A DNA stretch of 64,000 bases, from the IMG/VR virus record IMGVR_UViG_3300028533_000484, positions 32,001 to 96,000 of that record; one strand, 5' to 3'. Origin of the DNA: a virus (Duplodnaviria > Caudoviricetes). The position numbers were made by a program, and so were the translations under genes. The notes under the pieces are model-generated. The model searched no databases, had not been told where the DNA came from, and saw only the letters and a program-made list of their open reading frames with translations. Below are positions 7,333 through 63,701 of this stretch, one piece after another; the stretch's first letter is position 1, and each line of letters begins with the position of its first letter.

Positions 7333-7791
7333 TTGATCTTGGACTTTATTAATTTCTTAAAAGAGCATACCAGTTTAGAGGATTACAGAGTCTCTGACTT
7401 TGAAGGGACTTTTGAATTTAAAACCATCGATTCTAACAAAAACTATGCTTGTCCTTTTTGTAAAAAGACTTTAGGTAAAGCTTTTACTGAAGATCTCAGT
7501 TTCAAACACTTTAAAGACGAGTTTTCAAAAGAATGCGATTGTGAAAAGTGGAAACTTCGAAAAGAAAAATATAAGCAATGTTTGGAGTTAGTTGAGCAGT
7601 TACAGGATTTAGAAAATAAGTTGGAAGAGATCATTCAGACTACAAAGATTGAAAATCTGGAAGCAGTTGTGCCTACTCTGAAAGATATATATTTAGGATC
7701 CTTAAACGATAAAGCAGCTGAATTTGATAGGGCTTTTAAAAAATATTTAGATCTACAAAATCTAAGGAGCAATTGTGAAAGTAGAAATTGA
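7333..7791 (+). CDS. Hypothetical Zn-binding/coiled-coil protein
   Basis: CPFC and CDC motifs followed by a heptad region. Confidence 0.6.
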   Translation: MILDFINFLKEHTSLEDYRVSDFEGTFEFKTIDSNKNYACPFCKKTLGKAFTEDLSFKHFKDEFSKECDCEKWKLRKEKYKQCLELVEQLQDLENKLEEIIQTTKIENLEAVVPTLKDIYLGSLNDKAAEFDRAFKKYLDLQNLRSNCESRN

Positions 7792-8500
7792 AATGAAAGC
7801 AAAAGTAAACGATTCTCAAATCGATAAGTTGCTTTGGTATTTTAACAATGAAACAACATATCTAGCAAAAAAGGATACATATTTTTCGTTTGGAGGAATA
7901 GCTCCAAAGAAGCCAAAGAGTATTATCCGTATTAGAAAGGAAGAGGAAATAAACGCTTACAAACTTTTAGAAGTATTTGGCGGAGTATCTAATGGTTTAA
8001 ACTATCCAAACATTAATTCAATTCTAAAAAGTTTTACTATACTGTTTGAGGCTAAAAAAATGTTAAGCTTCGATCCTAGTAAGAAAAGCTCTTGGCTTAC
8101 GGTAAAGGTAAAAAACACAAATCTAGAAGGAATTGAAACAAACGAAGAAACAGAAGGTCAACTATCTGAGGATACGGAAAAAGCATTTCGTGAGTCTATG
8201 AGCATTGCAAACTTCAAACCATACTTTACAAAGCTTAAGCAGTCCTTCTCTTTCTATGTACAAAATAAAGATAAGGATAAAAACAATTTTGAAATGCATG
8301 CGGAACTAGTTTCTGTAGATGGTATAGGACCTTATCTTGAAATTGAATCGGTTGTAAAAGAAAAAGATGCGGCAGAAGCTAGAGACCAAATTAGATGGTT
8401 TTTCGAGTATGAATTAGGTATTACAGACTTCGATGGACGTAGTTGGTCTGATATTGTAGAGGAGAGTTACAATGGCGATAAGCAAGAAGACGTTTTGTGA
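7775..8500 (+). CDS. CYTH / triphosphate-tunnel metalloenzyme (class IV adenylate cyclase-like)
   Basis: N-terminal EIEMK (ExExK), DTYF, IRIR, LTVK, ExE and C-terminal VDGIGPYLEIE motifs. Confidence 0.8.
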   Translation: MKVEIEMKAKVNDSQIDKLLWYFNNETTYLAKKDTYFSFGGIAPKKPKSIIRIRKEEEINAYKLLEVFGGVSNGLNYPNINSILKSFTILFEAKKMLSFDPSKKSSWLTVKVKNTNLEGIETNEETEGQLSEDTEKAFRESMSIANFKPYFTKLKQSFSFYVQNKDKDKNNFEMHAELVSVDGIGPYLEIESVVKEKDAAEARDQIRWFFEYELGITDFDGRSWSDIVEESYNGDKQEDVL

Positions 8501-8936
8501 GAGAGTAGAAATAATTAAAGCTGCTGATAAAAAACTAAAGGATGCTATCGAGACAGTTTTTGAAAAAAATCCTTTTTTAGATTCAAAAGAGTCATCTGCT
8601 TTTCCTGCGGAATGGATTTACAATATTACAGAAGAGCATCTAAAAACTCTATTCTTGGCAGTTAATGATAAATTAGATACAGTAAAAGTTGCCGAAAACC
8701 AGGATGAAACTTGTAAAGAGTTTGAAGCAAAAATGGAAGAGCTTCGCAAATTAGATACAGTTTTTGCAAATTGTTCTTGGAAGCCAAATAAAGATAAAAC
8801 ATTGCTTGATGCAGAGGTAGAATATTACTATGGTGAATGGAATTTTGCTGGACAAGTTGAACAAAATGGTAAAGAGTATTTTCTAGAGAAGCCTGAGGAT
8901 CTCTACGAATATTTAAAGACTCTTGCACAAGATTAA
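8472..8936 (+). CDS. Hypothetical protein
   Basis: GAGGAG RBS; 154 aa. Confidence 0.7.
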   Translation: MAISKKTFCERVEIIKAADKKLKDAIETVFEKNPFLDSKESSAFPAEWIYNITEEHLKTLFLAVNDKLDTVKVAENQDETCKEFEAKMEELRKLDTVFANCSWKPNKDKTLLDAEVEYYYGEWNFAGQVEQNGKEYFLEKPEDLYEYLKTLAQD

Positions 8937-9109
8937 TCTACAATTCTATACTAATTTTATAAAAATACCTTTTATCTTTCGGATGAAAGGTTGCTGTTCT
9001 CGTAAGATGCAGCGTAAAATTGCTTTTATGAAAGCTTTAAGTATTTACAGTGGTTACTTTTAAGTAGCAAAAAGCTTTCAACTTTTTTGAAGTTTTAAGA
9101 AAAGAAACA

Positions 9110-9171
9110 CCTATATTATAAATGTTGATAGTTACAAATAAAGTAACTCGAAACATTTAAGTTCTTTGACA
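9110..9171 (+). promoter_or_regulatory. Promoter motif, hairpin and boxA-like antitermination site for tRNA cluster 1
   Basis: CCTATATT at 9110, AATGTT..AACATT hairpin, then GTTCTTTGACA (9161-9171). Confidence 0.5.
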
Positions 9172-9194
9172 CTATTAGGGATAGTTAATTTTTT

Positions 9195-9268
9195 AGGGCT
9201 ATAACTCAGTTGGCTAGAGTGTCAGCTTTGCAAGCTGAAGGTCGTGAGTTCAAATCTCACTAGTTCCA
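9195..9268 (+). tRNA. tRNA-Ala(TGC)
   Basis: Cloverleaf; TCAGC-TTTGCAA-GCTGA; G3:U70; GTTCAAAT T-loop. Confidence 0.85.
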
Positions 9269-9518
9269 TTTCAAATAAATAATCAGGGTGATATTCAGAA
9301 AACTTCACACTCGTAACAAAGAATCCTAATAAGATTAGGTAGGGCAGGATGGAGATAAATAAGGAAGCGTTGTTCACTTCTCGAAAATTAGCCCGACTCT
9401 TAAATGAGTCACCTTCATCAATTCTATTCAAGGTTGTAAAGCTCGTTAGAGTACCAGGAATAGGAAATCAGTTCAAGTATTACTTGAGCTACTGTAAAGA
9501 CAGAATTACGAACTATCT

Positions 9519-9590
9519 GGTCTGTTCGGCTAGTGGTTAGGCCACAAGGTTTTCATCCTTGTAGCACGGGTTCAATTCCCGTACAGACCT
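9519..9590 (+). tRNA. tRNA-Glu(TTC)
   Basis: GGTCTGT/ACAGACC acceptor; CAAGG-TTTTCAT-CCTTG. Confidence 0.9.
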
Positions 9591-9592
9591 TA

Positions 9593-9712
9593 TCGCAGAA
9601 ATTGTTCCTATTAACTCGGTATCATAAACCAGTAGTCGAGGTTCGAATCCTCGGGTCCCCAATTTCGTGGGGATTTGGTGTAATGGTAGCACGCTATATA
9701 TACAATTCGCGA
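9593..9712 (+). ncRNA. Clamp element 1 enclosing a circularly permuted tRNA (CAT anticodon, 9618-9695)
   Basis: Order is anticodon loop ATCATAA, T arm CGAGG-TTCGAAT-CCTCG, 3' acceptor GGTCCCC, short loop, 5' acceptor GGGGATT, D arm; flanked by AATTGT-TCCT-AT / AT-ACAATT-C-GCGA. Confidence 0.8.
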
Positions 9713-9719
9713 TTTTTTT

Positions 9720-9803
9720 GGAAGTATGGATGAATTGGCAAAATCACCAACCTGCTAAGTTGGTTACCTTCGGGTAGTGCGTGGTCGGGACACGCTGCTT
9801 CCG
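9720..9803 (+). tRNA. tRNA-Ser(GCT), atypical T loop
   Basis: CCAAC-CTGCTAA-GTTGG; long variable arm TACC-TTCG-GGTA; T loop GTCGGGA. Confidence 0.8.
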
Positions 9804-10120
9804 CTAAAGCTAAGCTGTAAAAGTTCCCTACAGATTTAGCAACACTGTTTGACGGTATCAGGTGTAAAAGCTTTACACAAGTCAAAACCGAAAAGAGTAA
9901 TTTGCTTTTCAACTTTGATAAAAACCGGCCTTTCGTAAGCGCTTACGAATAAAAAAGGGAACACCTTTTTTGAATACAGTAATATAGACTTTTCTATATT
10001 GTAAAAAGTTGTGGCTATGCAACTTAAAAAGATACAACACTGCAGGAAGTCAGCTGTTTGACTTTGTTAACGTTGTTACATAGTGTTTGTGAGTTGCTGC
10101 AAACTGCAACTCCTTTTCAA

Positions 10121-10219
10121 CACTGTCTAGCAAAATACAGATAGGCGCGCGCTTATTGCTTATCTAGGATAATGTGCCATTGCGCGATGGAGGTCCAGGT
10201 TCGAGTCCTGGGGCAGTGA
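10121..10219 (+). ncRNA. tRNA-like RNA with elongated anticodon arm
   Basis: CACTGTC/GGCAGTG acceptor; CCAGG-TTCGAGT-CCTGG T arm; no 7-nt anticodon loop. Confidence 0.55.
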
Positions 10220-10288
10220 AAATCGATACTCGACGGAGTTCGATAGTAGGCGACCCATATCCGACGGGAGTGGTTGAATCGTCGAAGT

Positions 10289-10382
10289 GGCTTATTCGTC
10301 TAAGGTTGAGTAACGTCAACTAAAGGTAAGGACGCTGGTGTATATTCACCGGAAATGGTGAGTTCAATTCTCCCATAAGTTA
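10289..10382 (+). ncRNA. tRNA-like RNA with hairpin inserted in the D loop and an irregular anticodon loop
   Basis: GGCTTAT/ATAAGTT acceptor; GGTTGA..TCAACT insert; CTGGTG-TATATT-CACCGG arm; TTCAATT T loop. Confidence 0.55.
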
Positions 10383-10391
10383 CATTTTTGT

Positions 10392-10448
10392 AGTGCATAA
10401 GTTGTTCCTATTGTAAAGAATGCTTTTGGTTTTTATACAACTCGCACT
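10392..10448 (+). repeat. Clamp element 2 (no tRNA cargo)
   Basis: AGTGC-ATA-AGTTGT-TCCT-AT ... AT-ACAACT-C-GCACT. Confidence 0.75.
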
Positions 10449-10673
10449 TTTATTTTTAAGCTAAAACGGTCAAATAACATTAGCAAGCAAGACCTGTTGT
10501 CCGTTATCTGAAGGGTCTCTAAACAAGGTGTTAATGTGTATGACAATTTCTAGATCATGTCACGTGGCTTAAGGGATGAGCCCTTCACAAGGAGTAAGAG
10601 TCTCCGGAGTTATAGGATTAGAAATTGTAACGAAACAGCACCCTTTTGACAGAGGTTGTGATAGGACGTTTGT

Positions 10674-10747
10674 GGAGTTATGGAGCAGATGGTTAGCTCA
10701 GGTGACTGTCACTCACCAGGTCACGGGTTCGAGTCCCGTTAACTCCG
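10674..10747 (+). tRNA. tRNA-Asp(GTC)
   Basis: GGAGTTA/TAACTCC acceptor; GGTGA-CTGTCAC-TCACC. Confidence 0.9.
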
Positions 10748-10808
10748 TACAAAAGTAGCATTAGTGGTTGCAAACACGAGGCTATTGTAGGAAATTCGAA
10801 ATTCCTAT

Positions 10809-10973
10809 CGATTATATGGTGTATGGGTGCACAGCCGGCCCGAGTACTTGACAATAAGGCCTGACGATAGCTTACGACCTGCATTAAGCAGACGACGGAG
10901 CGACAATAGGGCCTGACGATAAAGGAAACAGGTCGGCAGGGTGAGTTAAGGTTCGAGTCCTTCGTATAATTGT
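10809..10973 (+). ncRNA. tRNA-like scaffold with a large repeat-containing domain in place of the anticodon loop
   Basis: CGATTATA/TATAATTG acceptor-like stem, D arm, GCCGGCC/GGTCGGC stem, AAGG-TTCGAGT-CCTT T arm; two copies of GACAATARGGCCTGACGATA. Confidence 0.6.
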
Positions 10974-10979
10974 ATTTAC

Positions 10980-11052
10980 AGCGGGATAAAGCAGTTGGCA
11001 GCTTGCGAGCCCCATAAGCTCGATGTCGAAGGTTCGAGTCCTTCTCCCGCCA
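10980..11052 (+). tRNA. tRNA-Met(CAT), initiator-like 1:72 mismatch
   Basis: CGAGC-CCCATAA-GCTCG; A1:C72 mismatch; C at position 33. Confidence 0.8.
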
Positions 11053-11057
11053 AAACA

Positions 11058-11181
11058 AACGCATAGGTTGTTCCTATTCTCAGAGTTGTCGAGTAGCTCA
11101 ATTTGGTAGAGCACTAGATATCTAATCTAGAGGTTGTGAGTTCGAATCTCACCTCAACGTCCATGATATACAACTCGCGTT
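11058..11181 (+). repeat. Clamp element 3 enclosing a linear tRNA
   Basis: AACGC-ATA-GGTTGT-TCCT-AT ... AT-ACAACT-C-GCGTT. Confidence 0.75.
11087..11163 (+). tRNA. tRNA-Arg(TCT), A33 variant, with encoded CCA
   Basis: CTAGA-TATCTAA-TCTAG; GTGAG-TTCGAAT-CTCAC; ends TCCA. Confidence 0.75.
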
Positions 11182-11199
11182 CGATTTTAGAAAATTATT

Positions 11200-11325
11200 G
11201 TGCCAAAGCTGTTCCTATTTCAAAGGACTGTTAATCCGTGGGTCGTTGGTTCGATTCCAACCTGACTTCGAAATTAAGTAGAAGCAGTAGCTCAGTGGTA
11301 GAGCAACGCAAAATACAGCTCGCAC
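11200..11325 (+). ncRNA. Clamp element 4 enclosing a circularly permuted tRNA-Asn(GTT) (11225-11307)
   Basis: GGA-CTGTTAA-TCCGT, T arm GTTGG-TTCGATT-CCAAC, 3' acceptor CTGACTTC, loop, 5' acceptor GAAGCAG, D arm TAGCTCAGTGGTAGAGC; flanked by AGCTGT-TCCT-ATTT / AAAT-ACAGCT-C-GCAC. Confidence 0.85.
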
Positions 11326-11330
11326 TTTTT

Positions 11331-11404
11331 GCGTTGGTAGTTTAATTGGATAAAACACCGGCCATTCCAGGTCGGAATTATTAGTTCGAATCTAATTCAA
11401 CGCT
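11331..11404 (+). tRNA. tRNA-Gly(TCC)-like with 8-nt anticodon loop
   Basis: GCGTTGG/TCAACGC acceptor, U73; CCGGC-CATTCCAG-GTCGG. Confidence 0.6.
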
Positions 11405-11411
11405 TTTATTT

Positions 11412-11483
11412 GGCCGCTTCGTCTATCGGTTAGGACGGGTCCCTCTCAAGGATCAAAGAGCAGTTCGATTCTGCTAGTGGCTA
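11412..11483 (+). tRNA. tRNA-Glu(CTC)
   Basis: GGTCC-CTCTCAA-GGATC; canonical D and T arms. Confidence 0.85.
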
Positions 11484-11502
11484 ATTTTTAAGGTTGCAAA
11501 GA

Positions 11503-11946
11503 GTGAAAACTTTATTAAATGAAATGGCTACTTTGCGAAAAGCAAAAACAGGTTTACCTGTAAACATCTATGTTGATGATGCAGGTACATACTTGAATAG
11601 TGGACATTTTAAAAGAATAAAATTTCAAAAAGATTATGGCAATGCTCCAGTAACTAGGGAATTTGCTACAATGACATTGGAAGGAGACTTAATTCAAAGT
11701 ACAATGTCAAATTGTGAAGTTAAAGCAAAAGACCTGAACAAAATAAGGAATTTTGTTTTAAATAATAAAGAAGCTTTAAGTCATCTAGCAGATGCAGAAA
11801 TTGATATTTTTGAATTTTCAGAAATAATGATTCCTGGAGGAGAGAAAGCTACTTTAGAGCAAATTAAAGCTCAGAGGACTTTATTGGATGAGCTTTTGGA
11901 TAATTTAAAACCTGAAAACGCTAATTTAAGTTTTAGTGTTAGATAA
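11503..11946 (+). CDS. Conserved phage hypothetical protein
   Basis: LNEMA..KTGLPVNIYVDD..H..RIKF pattern; GTG start is probable. Confidence 0.7.
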   Translation: MKTLLNEMATLRKAKTGLPVNIYVDDAGTYLNSGHFKRIKFQKDYGNAPVTREFATMTLEGDLIQSTMSNCEVKAKDLNKIRNFVLNNKEALSHLADAEIDIFEFSEIMIPGGEKATLEQIKAQRTLLDELLDNLKPENANLSFSVR

Positions 11947-12011
11947 AAAATATTTAAAAAAATAAAATTACAAAAAGTTAACCTTTCCAAATTGGAAAGG
12001 CTTTTCTATTT

Positions 12012-12161
12012 TTAACTACAATTAAGTATTTCGTCAGAAGGATCAAACATATAATCTTGTACTTGATTTACATCCTCCTCGTAATCTAAATCATTATTAG
12101 AAGAAGCTTCTACCAACAATCCCCACAATTCAAATTCCTCGGATAGATTTTCGTAACTCAA
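12012..12161 (-). CDS. Small acidic protein (49 aa, not in ORF track)
   Basis: ACTAATT motif, AGGAGG RBS, TTG start, open to TAA next to a hairpin terminator. Confidence 0.55.
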   Translation of the reverse strand: MSYENLSEEFELWGLLVEASSNNDLDYEEDVNQVQDYMFDPSDEILNCS

Positions 12162-12243
12162 TTAAAGCCTCCTAGACTTCTTTTTTCTTAATTAGTACAG
12201 ATATAGGTAATTCCAACTATATTGATGTAAAAAGGAAAAAAGA

Positions 12244-13167
12244 ATGAAATCAACAAGTATTAGTAGAATTAAGAATTTTAAACATTGTCCACTGTCATAT
12301 TTGTACACTTACATTGACAAGTTTGTACCGACTGAACAACAACCGATCTTTGTACAAACCAAAGGTCTGGTTCTACATCAAGTTTTCGAAAGTATTCTCA
12401 AATATGAAAACTACAAAGATGGAGAACCTACTCTTCCTTACAGAAAAGCTGACACAAAAACAGTTATGGATGTTTTTAAAGCTGCAATGGAAGAAAATGA
12501 ATTTCCAATAGACAAAGCTATTGAATTTAATCTTAAACTTGGATTAAAGAGATGGCTTGACTTTAAGCATAATTATTTGGATAAGAATAGTCACGTAATG
12601 TATGCTGAAAAGCAGTATAACGAAATTCTTTTTGGCGAAACAAAAACAATTACAATTTTGGACTTGTTAGAGGATTGTGGTGATGGAAATTATATCATTT
12701 ACGACTACAAAACTCCAAAATCTGTAGATGTAAACAGATACAAAGAGCAGTTGCTTTTGTATGCATATACTATGGCCTGTGTAAAAGGAATTATTACACC
12801 AGGTTCAAACGACTATGATACAGTTAAACAACATTTTAAACTCTTCGTATTCTTTCCTCTGGTAAGTGGTAATTTTGATACATACGAAAAGTGCTTAAAG
12901 CAGGTGGAATTTACAGCTAATGAGGTTAAACATGTTGTAGAAGATGTAAAAAGAACTTGCGACATTATCGATGGTTTTGACTTTACAAAGCCTGCAGAAG
13001 TTTTGCAGTTAAGTAGTCCTGATTTTCAATGTAAGTGGTGTGCATTTTACGGAGCACATGCACAACCAGATACTGTATCAAAAAATGGTAGAGCTTTCGA
13101 AGGTTGTCCAATAACTGCATTTATGGGAGTAGATCCAATCAATGCAGAATTTCAACCTGTCCTTTAA
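12244..13167 (+). CDS. PD-(D/E)XK nuclease, Cas4/RecB/AddB-like with Fe-S cysteines
   Basis: SISRI..F..CP, GLVLH, E..LD..DYKT, QLLLY, CKWC...C. Confidence 0.85.
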   Translation: MKSTSISRIKNFKHCPLSYLYTYIDKFVPTEQQPIFVQTKGLVLHQVFESILKYENYKDGEPTLPYRKADTKTVMDVFKAAMEENEFPIDKAIEFNLKLGLKRWLDFKHNYLDKNSHVMYAEKQYNEILFGETKTITILDLLEDCGDGNYIIYDYKTPKSVDVNRYKEQLLLYAYTMACVKGIITPGSNDYDTVKQHFKLFVFFPLVSGNFDTYEKCLKQVEFTANEVKHVVEDVKRTCDIIDGFDFTKPAEVLQLSSPDFQCKWCAFYGAHAQPDTVSKNGRAFEGCPITAFMGVDPINAEFQPVL

Positions 13168-63640: not shown

Positions 63641-63701
63641 AAAGCAAAGGTTGTTCCTATTAAAAGTTATTTTATTGGAAAAATTGTGTACAACCCGCTT
63701 T
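63641..63701 (+). repeat. Clamp element 5 (no tRNA cargo)
   Basis: AAAGC-AAA-GGTTGT-TCCT-AT ... GT-ACAACC-C-GCTTT. Confidence 0.75.

What the first reader, a model, noticed from the sequence alone, without database searches (positions are those of the whole stretch)
9593..11325. Two circularly permuted tRNA genes in a phage, both broken at position 28/29
Seen: at 9618-9695 and 11225-11307 the tRNA parts run anticodon loop, T arm, 3' acceptor strand, short closing loop, 5' acceptor strand, D arm, so the 3' half precedes the 5' half. Joining the end to the start restores a perfect 5-bp anticodon stem in both (CT|GGT-ATCATAA-ACCAG; AC|GGA-CTGTTAA-TCCGT, where a shared G also allows 29/30). Each sits inside the same conserved flanking helix. 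Established: permuted tRNA genes are known from algae such as Cyanidioschyzon, nucleomorphs and the archaeon Thermofilum, where bulge-helix-bulge motifs and splicing endonuclease process them through a circular intermediate. Bacterial and phage YrlA Y-RNAs have a similar T-acceptor loop-D topology but lack an anticodon arm. Inference: these are either precursors matured by cleavage, ligation and opening of the acceptor loop, or uncharged end-less tRNA mimics that display anticodon loops (decoys for anticodon nucleases, or Y-RNA-like adaptors). I know of no described phage system with this layout.
Basis: partly seen in the sequence, partly recalled or inferred. Interest (0 to 1): 0.92.

Follow-up and report, generated by a model that had tools for sequence, protein, structure and literature searches.

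The report
Back-to-front tRNA mimics on stalk RNAs
Two complete tRNA bodies written back to front are real, but they are most likely not tRNA precursors: they are "heads" mounted on a conserved RNA stalk that, across hundreds of huge phages, is encoded next to one unnamed protein, pointing to an undescribed RNA-protein particle that displays tRNA look-alikes.

Summary
Observation confirmed. Window 9618-9695 and 11225-11307 are not tRNAs in genomic order, but ARAGORN calls tRNA-Met(CAU) (perfect cloverleaf) and tRNA-Asn(GUU) (flawed acceptor stem) once they are circularised.

The flanking helix belongs to a stalk family: 4 bp, an AWA/C internal loop, 6 bp ending GU/AC, then UCCUAUW. There are 7 copies plus one operator-like copy in this 140-kb jumbo-phage fragment, and over 200 in relatives. 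Covariation is very strong.

- **Payloads are interchangeable:** mostly short inserts, but also permuted tRNA bodies, ordinary tRNAs and bare anticodon stem-loops.
- **Break points vary** (27/28 to 31/32, 38/39, variable loop), and acceptor ends are sealed.
- **Gene linkage:** stalks sit about 100-fold enriched just upstream of one unnamed 600-690-aa protein (helical N-domain plus TerD fold). G000 encodes it, with a stalk look-alike on its ribosome-binding site.
- **Enzymes:** no Ro60/TROVE and no splicing endonuclease were found; relatives have RtcB.

Best reading: unprocessed tRNA mimics on a protein-docking stalk, working like Y RNA/YrlA without being a member. Maturation is less likely. 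No expression or binding data could be obtained.

Earlier notes of this scan describe the same kind of stalk-protein pair on other DNA. I found no paper on it.

The parts
9593..9712 (+). Stalk RNA 1 with a permuted tRNA(CAU) head. Layout: outer helix UCGC (9593-9596) / GCGA (9709-9712); internal loop AGA (9597-9599) opposite C (9708); inner helix AAUUGU (9600-9605) / ACAAUU (9702-9707); invariant UCCUAUU (9606-9612); leader AACUC (9613-9617); trailer AUAUAU (9696-9701).
   Evidence: Sequence. The MFE fold recovers the stalk. Compensatory changes appear among copies.
9618..9695 (+). Permuted tRNA body 1: positions 29-73, a 7-nt closing loop, then positions 1-28. Anticodon CAU.
   Evidence: ARAGORN calls tRNA-Met(cat) only after circularisation, as a perfect cloverleaf. 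It is at most 68% identical to any ordinary tRNA of the genome.
10393..10447 (+). Stalk RNA 2 with a short (24-nt) payload.
   Evidence: Covariance model R1, built without G000 sequences, gives 40.3 bits and E 2e-10.
11059..11180 (+). Stalk RNA 3, which carries an ordinary-order tRNA-Arg(UCU) (tRNA at 11087-11163).
   Evidence: ARAGORN and Rfam call the tRNA (56 bits). The stalk letters and helices ACGC/GCGU and GGUUGU/ACAACU are read directly.
11200..11325 (+). Stalk RNA 4 with a permuted tRNA(GUU) head. Layout: GUGC (11200-11203) / GCAC (11322-11325); CAA opposite C (11321); AGCUGU (11207-11212) / ACAGCU (11315-11320); UCCUAUU (11213-11219).
   Evidence: Sequence, fold and a sub-threshold YrlA hit at 11217-11338 (34.2 bits).
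11225..11307 (+). Permuted tRNA body 2. Anticodon GUU; the acceptor stem has a bulged A or two mismatches; an 11-nt loop closes it.
   Evidence: ARAGORN calls tRNA-Asn(gtt) only after circularisation. Heads of the same design occur in L004:3870-3988 and L084:4621-4738.
63642..63700 (+). Stalk RNA 5 with a short (28-nt) payload, in the second tRNA cluster.
   Evidence: Model R1 gives 48.2 bits and E 5e-13.

Best explanation
The two elements are members of a large, apparently undescribed family of small "stalk RNAs" of huge phages.

**The stalk.** It has an outer helix of at least 4 bp, an internal loop of A-W-A opposite a single C, a 6-bp inner helix ending GU/AC, then the invariant UCCUAUW. 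I infer that it is the docking site of a phage-encoded 600-690-aa protein (a helical N-terminal domain of unplaced fold plus a TerD-type beta-sandwich). In this genome that protein lies at genome 9183-11246, outside the window.

**The head.** The part above the stalk is interchangeable. In these two elements it is a whole tRNA body whose acceptor end is sealed by a loop, and whose chain ends leave through the anticodon stem into the stalk. The RNA can therefore adopt the tRNA L-shape and expose an anticodon loop (CAU, GUU), but it can never be charged.

**How it works (inferred).** I think the RNAs stay unprocessed at the tRNA-stalk junction and act like YrlA-type Y RNAs. The protein holds the stalk, and the tRNA-like head recruits, occupies or diverts a factor that recognises tRNA, such as a host anticodon nuclease or a tRNA-modifying or repair enzyme. 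The protein probably also binds a minimal stalk on its own ribosome-binding site and so limits its own synthesis.

**Shown here:** the permuted bodies, the stalk family and its covariation, the gene-stalk linkage, and the protein's fold.

**Inferred:** transcription, protein-stalk binding, lack of maturation, and the target of the mimicry.
For: 1. **The stalk is a selected RNA structure.** I anchored only on invariant letters. The three free inner-helix positions are then complementary in 189 of 247 pairs, using 30 different triplets; shuffled partners give a mean of 34 and a maximum of 52. The free outer pairs are complementary in 195 of 247, against 62 for shuffles. The last 5' loop base covaries with the first 3' loop base (G-C 87, A-U 84 of 205).

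2. **Gene linkage.** Of 80 viral loci encoding the protein, 71 have a stalk. Density is 1.97 per kb in the 1 kb upstream of the gene and 0.012-0.023 per kb farther away. The stricter finder gave 182 stalks on the gene strand and 2 on the other strand. This was replicated in GTDB genomes and MAGs, where 48 of 66 loci have a stalk, nearly all just upstream of the start codon.

3. **A stalk on the gene's own ribosome-binding site.** G000 has the gene with a stalk look-alike running into its GGAG. The stalk model scores it 21.5 bits, E 6e-4. The closest relative keeps it, with two compensatory pair changes.

4. **Payloads are modular.** Of 212 distinct stalks, 168 have short inserts, 15 hold permuted tRNA bodies and 5 hold ordinary-order tRNAs. 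I read bare anticodon stem-loops among the short inserts. In the closest relative the same stalks carry different heads.

5. **Break points differ:** 27/28, 28/29, 29/30, about 31/32, 38/39 and the variable loop. A single cut-and-join rule cannot serve them all.

6. **Acceptor ends are sealed.** Examples are a GAAA tetraloop with an extra pair (L004:3870-3988) and helices extended past position 73 (L084, L086). Some acceptor stems carry mismatches.

7. **The heads are redundant.** The genome has an ordinary tRNA-Asn(GUU) and four tRNA(CAU). The permuted bodies are at most 74% and 68% identical to any of them.

8. **No splicing machinery found.** G000, G001, G002 and the complete G005 have no tRNA-splicing endonuclease, and the stalk contains no bulge-helix-bulge.
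Against: - There is no evidence of transcription, RNA ends, binding or processing.
- In G000 the seven canonical stalks lie 30-90 kb from the protein gene, inside tRNA clusters, not next to it.
- The anticodon loops are strictly canonical (U33, purine 37) in most permuted heads, and the joins restore perfect 5-bp stems. Real tRNA precursors would look the same.
- Relatives G001 and G005 encode RtcB (58 and 150 bits), a ligase that could seal cut ends.
- The protein's N-terminal domain has no recognisable RNA-binding fold, and TerD domains are not known RNA binders.
- Ordinary-order tRNA payloads could simply be released by RNase P and RNase Z.
Confidence: 0.55

Rival explanations
1. True permuted tRNA genes. 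An endonuclease cuts at the tRNA-stalk junctions that the stalk brings together. RtcB joins position 28 to 29 and makes a circle. RNase P and RNase Z then open the acceptor loop, CCA is added, and a working tRNA-Met/Ile(CAU) and tRNA-Asn(GUU) result.
For: - In-silico joining gives good cloverleaves with perfect 5-bp anticodon stems and canonical loops.
- The phage's ordinary tRNAs also lack an encoded CCA.
- The closing loops of 7-11 nt resemble inter-tRNA spacers. AATTTCGT even recurs after tRNA-Arg(ACG).
- RtcB is present in G001 and in the complete G005.
Against: - There is no bulge-helix-bulge, and no tRNA_int_endo in four records including a complete genome.
- Break points vary widely in the family, and most payloads are not tRNAs.
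- Some acceptor ends are closed by tetraloops or extended helices, and element 2 has a defective acceptor stem.
- The anticodons are redundant with ordinary tRNAs.
- RtcB lies about 100 kb from the stalk gene, and RtcB is a general repair ligase in jumbo phages (PMC7824862).
Confidence: 0.15
2. The stalk is a processing or stability cassette, not a lasting docking site. The linked protein or a host RNase cuts the stalk, much as Cas6 cuts CRISPR repeats, to release or trim the payloads from polycistronic transcripts. The released small RNAs (tRNAs, tRNA-like pieces, hairpins) then act on their own.
For: - Stalks occur in tight tandem arrays with 10-17-nt spacers, upstream of the gene and inside tRNA operons.
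- Ordinary tRNAs can be payloads.
- The tails after the stalk are mildly U-rich.
- The invariant R281-x6-H288 in the N-domain has the spacing of the HEPN RNase motif as I recall it.
Against: - No nuclease fold or family was detected in the protein.
- Conserved unpaired letters together with an operator-like copy on the gene's own ribosome-binding site are more typical of stable binding.
- The permuted heads would still be end-less mimics after release.
Confidence: 0.2
3. The permuted bodies are decaying debris of recombination between tandem tRNA genes that happened to land in stalk cassettes, and they have no function of their own.
For: - Element 2 has a flawed acceptor stem.
- Heads turn over quickly between close relatives.
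- The tRNA clusters hold other orphan T arms.
Against: - Permuted heads recur in at least 10 contigs with intact T, D and anticodon features, and with compensatory changes.
- Asn-type CUGUUAA loops recur on different stems.
- Element 1 is a flawless cloverleaf.
Confidence: 0.07

Closest known systems
YrlA-type Y RNAs with Ro60/Rsr (Rfam RF02553; Chen et al. 2014, PMC4201824; phage form phiRo60-Yrl of Thermus phage phiLo, PMC12135203)
   Same: - A small RNA whose 5' and 3' ends form a protein-binding stem.
- It carries a tRNA-like module in the order T arm, loop-closed acceptor stem, D arm.
- It is encoded next to its protein partner and is also found in phages.
- RtcB occurs in the same genomes.
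   Different: - No Ro60/TROVE gene in any of five records, one of them complete.
- The partner here has a TerD-type domain and no vWA or recognisable HEAT ring.
- The stalk lacks the GNCGAAN0-1G Ro-contact motif.
- The Rfam score is below the cut-off (34 against 69; no hit for element 1).
- The heads keep a full anticodon loop.
- Heads are interchangeable, and most family members have no tRNA part.
Circularly permuted tRNA genes of Cyanidioschyzon merolae and other algae, nucleomorphs and Thermofilum
   Same: - The 3' half precedes the 5' half.
- A short linker joins the acceptor strands.
- Leader and trailer pair with each other.
- Circularising in silico gives a normal cloverleaf.
   Different: - There is no bulge-helix-bulge at the junction.
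- No splicing endonuclease was detected.
- The organisms are bacterial viruses.
- Break points vary, and the same flanks hold non-tRNA inserts.
- The anticodons are redundant with ordinary tRNA genes.
- No processing data exist.
Phage tRNAs that counter host anticodon nucleases and tRNA depletion
   Same: Encoded in phage tRNA clusters, and they expose anticodon loops that host nucleases could recognise.
   Different: Those are ordinary, chargeable tRNAs that replace cleaved host tRNAs. The elements here cannot be charged and would act, if at all, as decoys or adaptors.

Membership tests
Permuted tRNA genes (algal/archaeal type) | The 3' half lies upstream of the 5' half, and the circularised sequence scores as a tRNA. 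| tested here: met
   ARAGORN calls Met(cat) and Asn(gtt) only after circularisation.
Permuted tRNA genes (algal/archaeal type) | A bulge-helix-bulge motif formed by leader and trailer at the processing sites. | tested here: not met
   The flanks form 4 bp, a 3x1 internal loop and 6 bp, followed by unpaired UCCUAUW. There is no arrangement of 3-nt bulge, 4 bp, 3-nt bulge, and the distance from stalk to join varies.
Permuted tRNA genes (algal/archaeal type) | A tRNA-splicing endonuclease is available. | tested here: not met
   PF01974 is absent from G000, G001, G002 and the complete G005, while the controls respond. The host genome is unknown.
Permuted tRNA genes (algal/archaeal type) | A circular intermediate and a mature, charged tRNA are observed. 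| not testable with these tools
YrlA / Y RNA with Ro60 (RF02553) | The sequence reaches the Rfam gathering score. | tested here: not met
   Element 2 scores 34.2 bits against 69. Element 1 gives no hit at E up to 10.
YrlA / Y RNA with Ro60 (RF02553) | The order T arm, closed acceptor stem, D arm on a terminal stem. | tested here: met
   Direct reading. The YrlA alignment covers exactly these parts.
YrlA / Y RNA with Ro60 (RF02553) | A Ro60/TROVE gene nearby or in the genome. | tested here: not met
   PF05731 is absent from G000, G001, G002, G004 and the complete G005. G000 is only about 35% complete.
YrlA / Y RNA with Ro60 (RF02553) | The 5' GNCGAAN0-1G Ro-contact motif (PMC4201824). | tested here: not met
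   The stalk's 5' strands read NGGC-AWA-RNNNGU-UCCUAUW and contain no such motif.
Ro60 fold for the linked protein | A HEAT-repeat ring plus a vWA domain. | tested here: inconclusive
   The C-terminal domain is TerD-like (Z 9.9, rmsd 3.1 over 135 residues). The N-domain gives only weak alpha-solenoid matches (best Z 6.0). The atlas finds only its own viral family.
Stalk RNA family (undescribed; defined here) | The invariant letters GU-UCCUAUW, an AWA loop opposite C, and U-AC on the 3' side. | tested here: met
   Both elements carry them exactly, except that element 2 has CAA for AWA.
Stalk RNA family (undescribed; defined here) | Two helices that covary. | tested here: met
   Both elements form 4 + 6 bp.
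Stalk RNA family (undescribed; defined here) | A significant score with covariance model R1. | tested here: inconclusive
   R1 scores the short-payload copies (48, 40, 36, 24 and 21.5 bits). It cannot span the ~90-nt inserts of the tRNA-bearing copies, even without filters.
Stalk RNA family (undescribed; defined here) | The partner gene is present in the genome. | tested here: met
   Genome 9183-11246, a 687-aa member of a family of 1,575 clusters.
Canonical tRNA (RF00005) | Scores as a tRNA in genomic order. | tested here: not met
   18 and 15.6 bits against 29 for the two halves of element 2, and nothing for element 1.

The most novel reading that the evidence does not exclude
The stalk RNAs and the TerD-domain protein form a new class of phage ribonucleoprotein, unrelated to Ro60/Y RNA. 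It uses one constant docking stalk to present a library of swappable RNA heads: whole tRNA bodies, bare anticodon loops and other hairpins. The phage uses these heads to intercept or redirect host factors that attack or modify tRNAs, for example anticodon nucleases. On this reading the permuted tRNAs are purpose-built, uncleavable-end decoys.
Probability: 0.3. Interest if true: 0.9.

Novelty: new variant of a known kind. Interest (0 to 1): 0.8.

Why it matters
- **tRNA mimicry beyond Ro60.** If the reading holds, tRNA mimicry on a protein-docking RNA is not confined to Ro60/Y RNA. A second, unrelated protein family would use the same principle. That family has about 1,600 clusters at 50% identity, is common in huge phages, and also occurs in some bacterial chromosomes.
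- **A modular design.** One stalk carries many heads, among them full tRNA bodies with exposed anticodons.
- **Testable biology.** It gives a concrete handle on an open question: what the many odd tRNA-like pieces in jumbo-phage tRNA islands are for.
- **A natural scaffold.** The stalk is a natural way to display RNA modules.
- **Annotation.** tRNA finders miss these elements. Reading them as permuted tRNA genes would miscount a phage's decoding capacity.

Tried and rejected
- **Expression data.** No reads could be laid, so junction or circular reads could not be sought.
- **Deposited phages.** There is no relative beyond single tRNAs.
- **Neighbouring genes (Pfam).** Almost nothing. Only a CYTH protein, a PD-(D/E)XK nuclease, ThyX and thymidine kinase were named.
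- **Naming the partner protein.** Pfam, PHROGs, NCBIfam and PDB sequence searches all came back blank.
- **Enzymes sought in phage records.** TROVE was absent, T4 Rnl1 absent and tRNA_int_endo absent. RtcB was absent in G000 but present in G001 and G005.
- **Fold of the N-terminal domain.** Foldseek against PDB, VIA-wide and the atlas found no convincing relative and no Ro60.
- **Covariance model on the two elements.** The model cannot span their inserts.
- **Promoter and terminator scan of 8900-11600.** Counts were no higher than in shuffles for promoters, and there were no terminators at the stalks. The U-rich tail after stalks is only mild: 75 of 205 tails have at least 4 U in 6 nt, against 35 for the upstream side.
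- **Known self-cleaving ribozymes** (hammerhead, twister, hairpin and others). Rfam gave no hit in 9000-12500 at E up to 10. By eye the internal loop does not match the hairpin-ribozyme loop A or a kink-turn.
- **Alternative hairpin AUAGG/CCUAU within the 5' strand.** It is not conserved among copies.
- **MITE or terminal-inverted-repeat reading of the flanks.** Rejected, because the arms differ between copies with compensation.
- **Orthologues of the two heads in the closest relative.** The same stalks are there, but with different heads.
- **DUF7873 partner from earlier notes.** Not tested, because I had no accession. That system appears to be a different RNA.
Full report
**1. Where the window lies**

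The window is bases 32001-96000 of a single 140,446-bp IMG/VR virus contig (GC 33%). CheckV rates it only about 35% complete, so it is a fragment of a jumbo phage of roughly 400 kb. It carries 35 ARAGORN tRNA genes in two clusters, all on the + strand. No deposited phage is a near relative.

**2.

At 9618-9695 and 11225-11307 the tRNA parts run in this order: anticodon hairpin, variable region, T arm, 3' acceptor strand, closing loop, 5' acceptor strand, D arm.

- Neither stretch is called a tRNA in genomic order.
- Once circularised, ARAGORN calls tRNA-Met(cat) with a flawless cloverleaf, and tRNA-Asn(gtt) whose acceptor stem has a bulged A or two mismatches.
- Joining 28/29 restores the 5-bp anticodon stems. 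In element 2 a 29/30 join works as well.
- Rfam's YrlA model gives a full-length but sub-threshold hit on element 2 (34.2 bits against 69) and nothing on element 1. That hit rests on the T, acceptor and D order, not on the stalk.

**3. The flanking helix is a cassette**

The motif TGTTCCTATT with its 3' partner occurs seven times in the genome. Every copy is on the + strand and inside the tRNA clusters. The payloads are:

| Position | Payload |
|---|---|
| window 9593-9712 and 11200-11325 | the two permuted bodies |
| window 11059-11180 | an ordinary-order tRNA-Arg(UCU) |
| window 10393-10447 and 63642-63700; genome 98989-99060 and 99392-99472 | short inserts |

Pattern scans of IMG/VR found the same stalk in many contigs, several of them 230-501 kb long.

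From 205 elements the consensus is NGGC-AWA-RNNNGU-UCCUAUW...U-ACNNNY-C-GCCN. That is an outer helix of at least 4 bp, three bases opposite a single C, and a 6-bp inner helix.

An unbiased test anchored only on invariant letters:
- The free inner triplet is complementary in 189 of 247 pairs, using 30 different triplets. Shuffled partners give a mean of 34 and a maximum of 52.
- The free outer pairs are complementary in 195 of 247, against 62 for shuffles.

MFE folds of all five window copies recover the stalk.

**4. Payloads and break points**

Among 212 distinct stalks, 168 have short inserts, 15 hold permuted tRNA bodies, 5 hold ordinary-order tRNA-like sequences and about 10 hold T-loop pieces. 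Some short inserts are bare anticodon stem-loops, for example AUACA-CUGUUAA-UGUAU.

The permuted heads break at different places:

| Break point | Elements |
|---|---|
| 27/28 | L084 |
| 28/29 | both window elements, L086:5192, L109:5359, L140:5736 |
| 29/30 | L004:3870 |
| about 31/32 | two Leu(UAA) type-II bodies |
| 38/39, with the loop bases running into the stalk | L086:5437, L109:5684, L125, L139, L002 |
| variable loop, with an intact anticodon arm | L061 |

Acceptor ends are closed. One has a GAAA tetraloop plus an extra pair, others have helices extended past position 73, and some stems carry mismatches.

RNAalifold on seven elements of the 27-30 class from five contigs recovers the stalk, the small anticodon hairpin, and the T and D stems. 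Twelve of 22 pairs show double-sided compensation.

In contigs of the closest relative the same stalks occur with different heads. One of them has the same AGA loop and AAUUGU/ACAAUU helix as element 1.

**5. A partner gene**

- I confirmed it at genome 9136-9172: UUUC-AAA-GGCAGU-UCU...AU-ACUGCC-C-GAAA runs straight into GGAG and the ATG at 9183.
- A covariance model built from 59 short-payload stalks of other contigs scores it 21.5 bits, E 6e-4. It scores the four short-payload G000 copies 24-48 bits.
- The closest relative (59% protein identity) keeps this operator-like stalk, with two compensatory pair changes.

The protein family:
- It has more than 1,100 homologues in one search and 1,575 clusters at 50% identity in another.
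- It has no Pfam, PHROG, NCBIfam or PDB-sequence match.
- It is present in the stalk-bearing relatives G001, G002 and G005.

Linkage of the stalk to the gene:
- Of 80 viral loci encoding it, 71 have at least one stalk, and 63 have one ending within 1 kb upstream. Arrays reach nine copies.
- Density is 1.97 per kb in the 1 kb upstream and 0.012-0.023 per kb farther away.
- The stricter finder found 182 on the gene strand and 2 on the opposite strand.
- In an independent set of GTDB genomes and MAGs, 48 of 66 loci have a stalk, nearly always just before the start codon. This set includes a Bythopirellula chromosome and Ktedonobacter.
- In G002 a stalk with the Asn-type anticodon stem-loop ends 23 nt before the gene's start. 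By my reading of the coordinates, a permuted tRNA stalk lies about 240 nt after the gene's end.
- The gene lies in same-strand tRNA clusters in 35 of 80 loci.

**6. What the protein is**

The AlphaFold model is confident (pLDDT 84.6, pTM 0.81).
- Residues 419-596 are a TerD-type beta-sandwich (2qz7_B: Z 9.9, rmsd 3.1 over 135 residues; 3ibz: Foldseek E 1.7e-4).
- The helical N-terminal half, folded alone (pLDDT 80.5), has no Foldseek match. VIA gives only weak alpha-solenoid matches (best Z 6.0). The atlas returns only its own viral family.

I therefore cannot support the "divergent Ro60" idea found in some earlier notes. There is no TROVE match, no vWA domain and no Ro60 among the structural hits. 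That result is inconclusive, not negative.

**7. Enzymes**

- No TROVE in G000, G001, G002, G004 or the complete 415-kb G005.
- No tRNA-splicing endonuclease.
- No T4 Rnl1.
- RtcB is present in G001 (58 bits) and G005 (150 bits), far from the stalk gene. It is absent in the 140 kb held for G000.

**8. Weighing the models**

The maturation model explains the perfect joins and the canonical loops, and a ligase is available in relatives. It does not explain:
- the variable break points
- the sealed and sometimes imperfect acceptor ends
- the non-tRNA payloads
- the redundancy with ordinary tRNA-Asn and tRNA(CAU) genes
- the lack of any bulge-helix-bulge or known endonuclease

The mimic-on-a-stalk model explains all of these, as well as the gene linkage and the operator-like copy. 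It still rests on inference for binding and for function.

A processing-cassette model, in which the protein cuts the stalk, remains open.

My estimates:
- The elements belong to the stalk family and that family is tied to this gene: about 0.95.
- The tRNA heads are not matured into translating tRNAs: about 0.7.
- The full best explanation: 0.55.

**9. Prior knowledge**

- YrlA/Ro60 is described in PMC4201824, and a phage Ro60-Yrl particle in PMC12135203.
- The jumbo-phage survey PMC7824862 mentions ROT/TROVE with a tRNA-like partner, and TerD only within Ter systems.
- My four full-text searches found no description of this stalk, of this protein, or of permuted tRNA bodies in phages.
- Rfam 15 has no family for the stalk.
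- Earlier AI notes of this scan, unchecked, describe the same kind of stalk-protein pair on other DNA. I tested their main claim, the stalk-gene linkage, independently here.

Noticed in passing
window 10121-10218: A possible ~98-nt tRNA-like element that ARAGORN and Rfam do not call. It has a T arm CCAGG-UUCGAGU-CCUGG at 10195 and a candidate acceptor pair CACUGUC/GGCAGUG.
   Followed up: no
window 10340-10375, 10930-10965, 62026, 62527, 63207: Further orphan T-arm signatures outside any called tRNA and outside stalks. The tRNA clusters are full of odd tRNA-like pieces. Another reader noted a tRNA scaffold with a tandem 20-nt motif at 10809-10973.
   Followed up: no
window 11331-11404: ARAGORN calls a tRNA with an abnormal two-base 'anticodon' (tc), while Rfam scores it 51 bits as a tRNA. 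It is an unusual anticodon loop, directly after stalk RNA 4.
   Followed up: no
window 7775-8500 and 12244-13167: A CYTH (triphosphate tunnel) protein and a PD-(D/E)XK nuclease flank tRNA cluster 1. No link to the stalk RNAs was shown.
   Followed up: no
window 9661-9668; L068:1751-1758 (genome 97751-97758): The closing stretch AATTTCGT of element 1 (discriminator A plus the 7-nt loop) is identical to the 8 nt that follow tRNA-Arg(ACG) elsewhere in the genome. This may be a trace of origin from a tandem tRNA junction, or it may be chance.
   Followed up: no
L075:3970-4034, L004:3531-3593, L231 (-) 355-423, L238 (-) 1490-1556: A conserved double-hairpin payload subfamily: UGC-UGAUGAA-GCA followed by AUACA-CUGUUAA-UGUAU, an Asn-like anticodon loop (one copy has CUUGUAA instead). 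In G002 it is the stalk right before the partner gene. CUGUUAA loops recur in several heads, and the reason is unknown.
   Followed up: partly
L066:9183-11246 (protein residues 278-290): The invariant residues N278, R281, H288 and P290 include an R-x6-H spacing. From my own knowledge this resembles the HEPN RNase motif. No HEPN fold or Pfam match was found, so this is only a lead.
   Followed up: no
many short-payload stalks, e.g. window 10425-10432 and alignment A4: Short payloads often contain UUGG 8-12 nt before the 3' strand. It could pair with the invariant UCC and form a third small helix.
   Followed up: no
L068:188-928 (genome 96188-96928): A 246-aa ORF inside tRNA cluster 2 has a weak match to phage endonuclease I (E 0.0012, below the cut-off).
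   Followed up: no
L157 / G006: The closest relative of the partner protein (59% identity) lies on a 65-kb contig binned with a Treponema MAG. This is a possible host hint for this phage lineage, or a mis-binned phage contig.
   Followed up: partly
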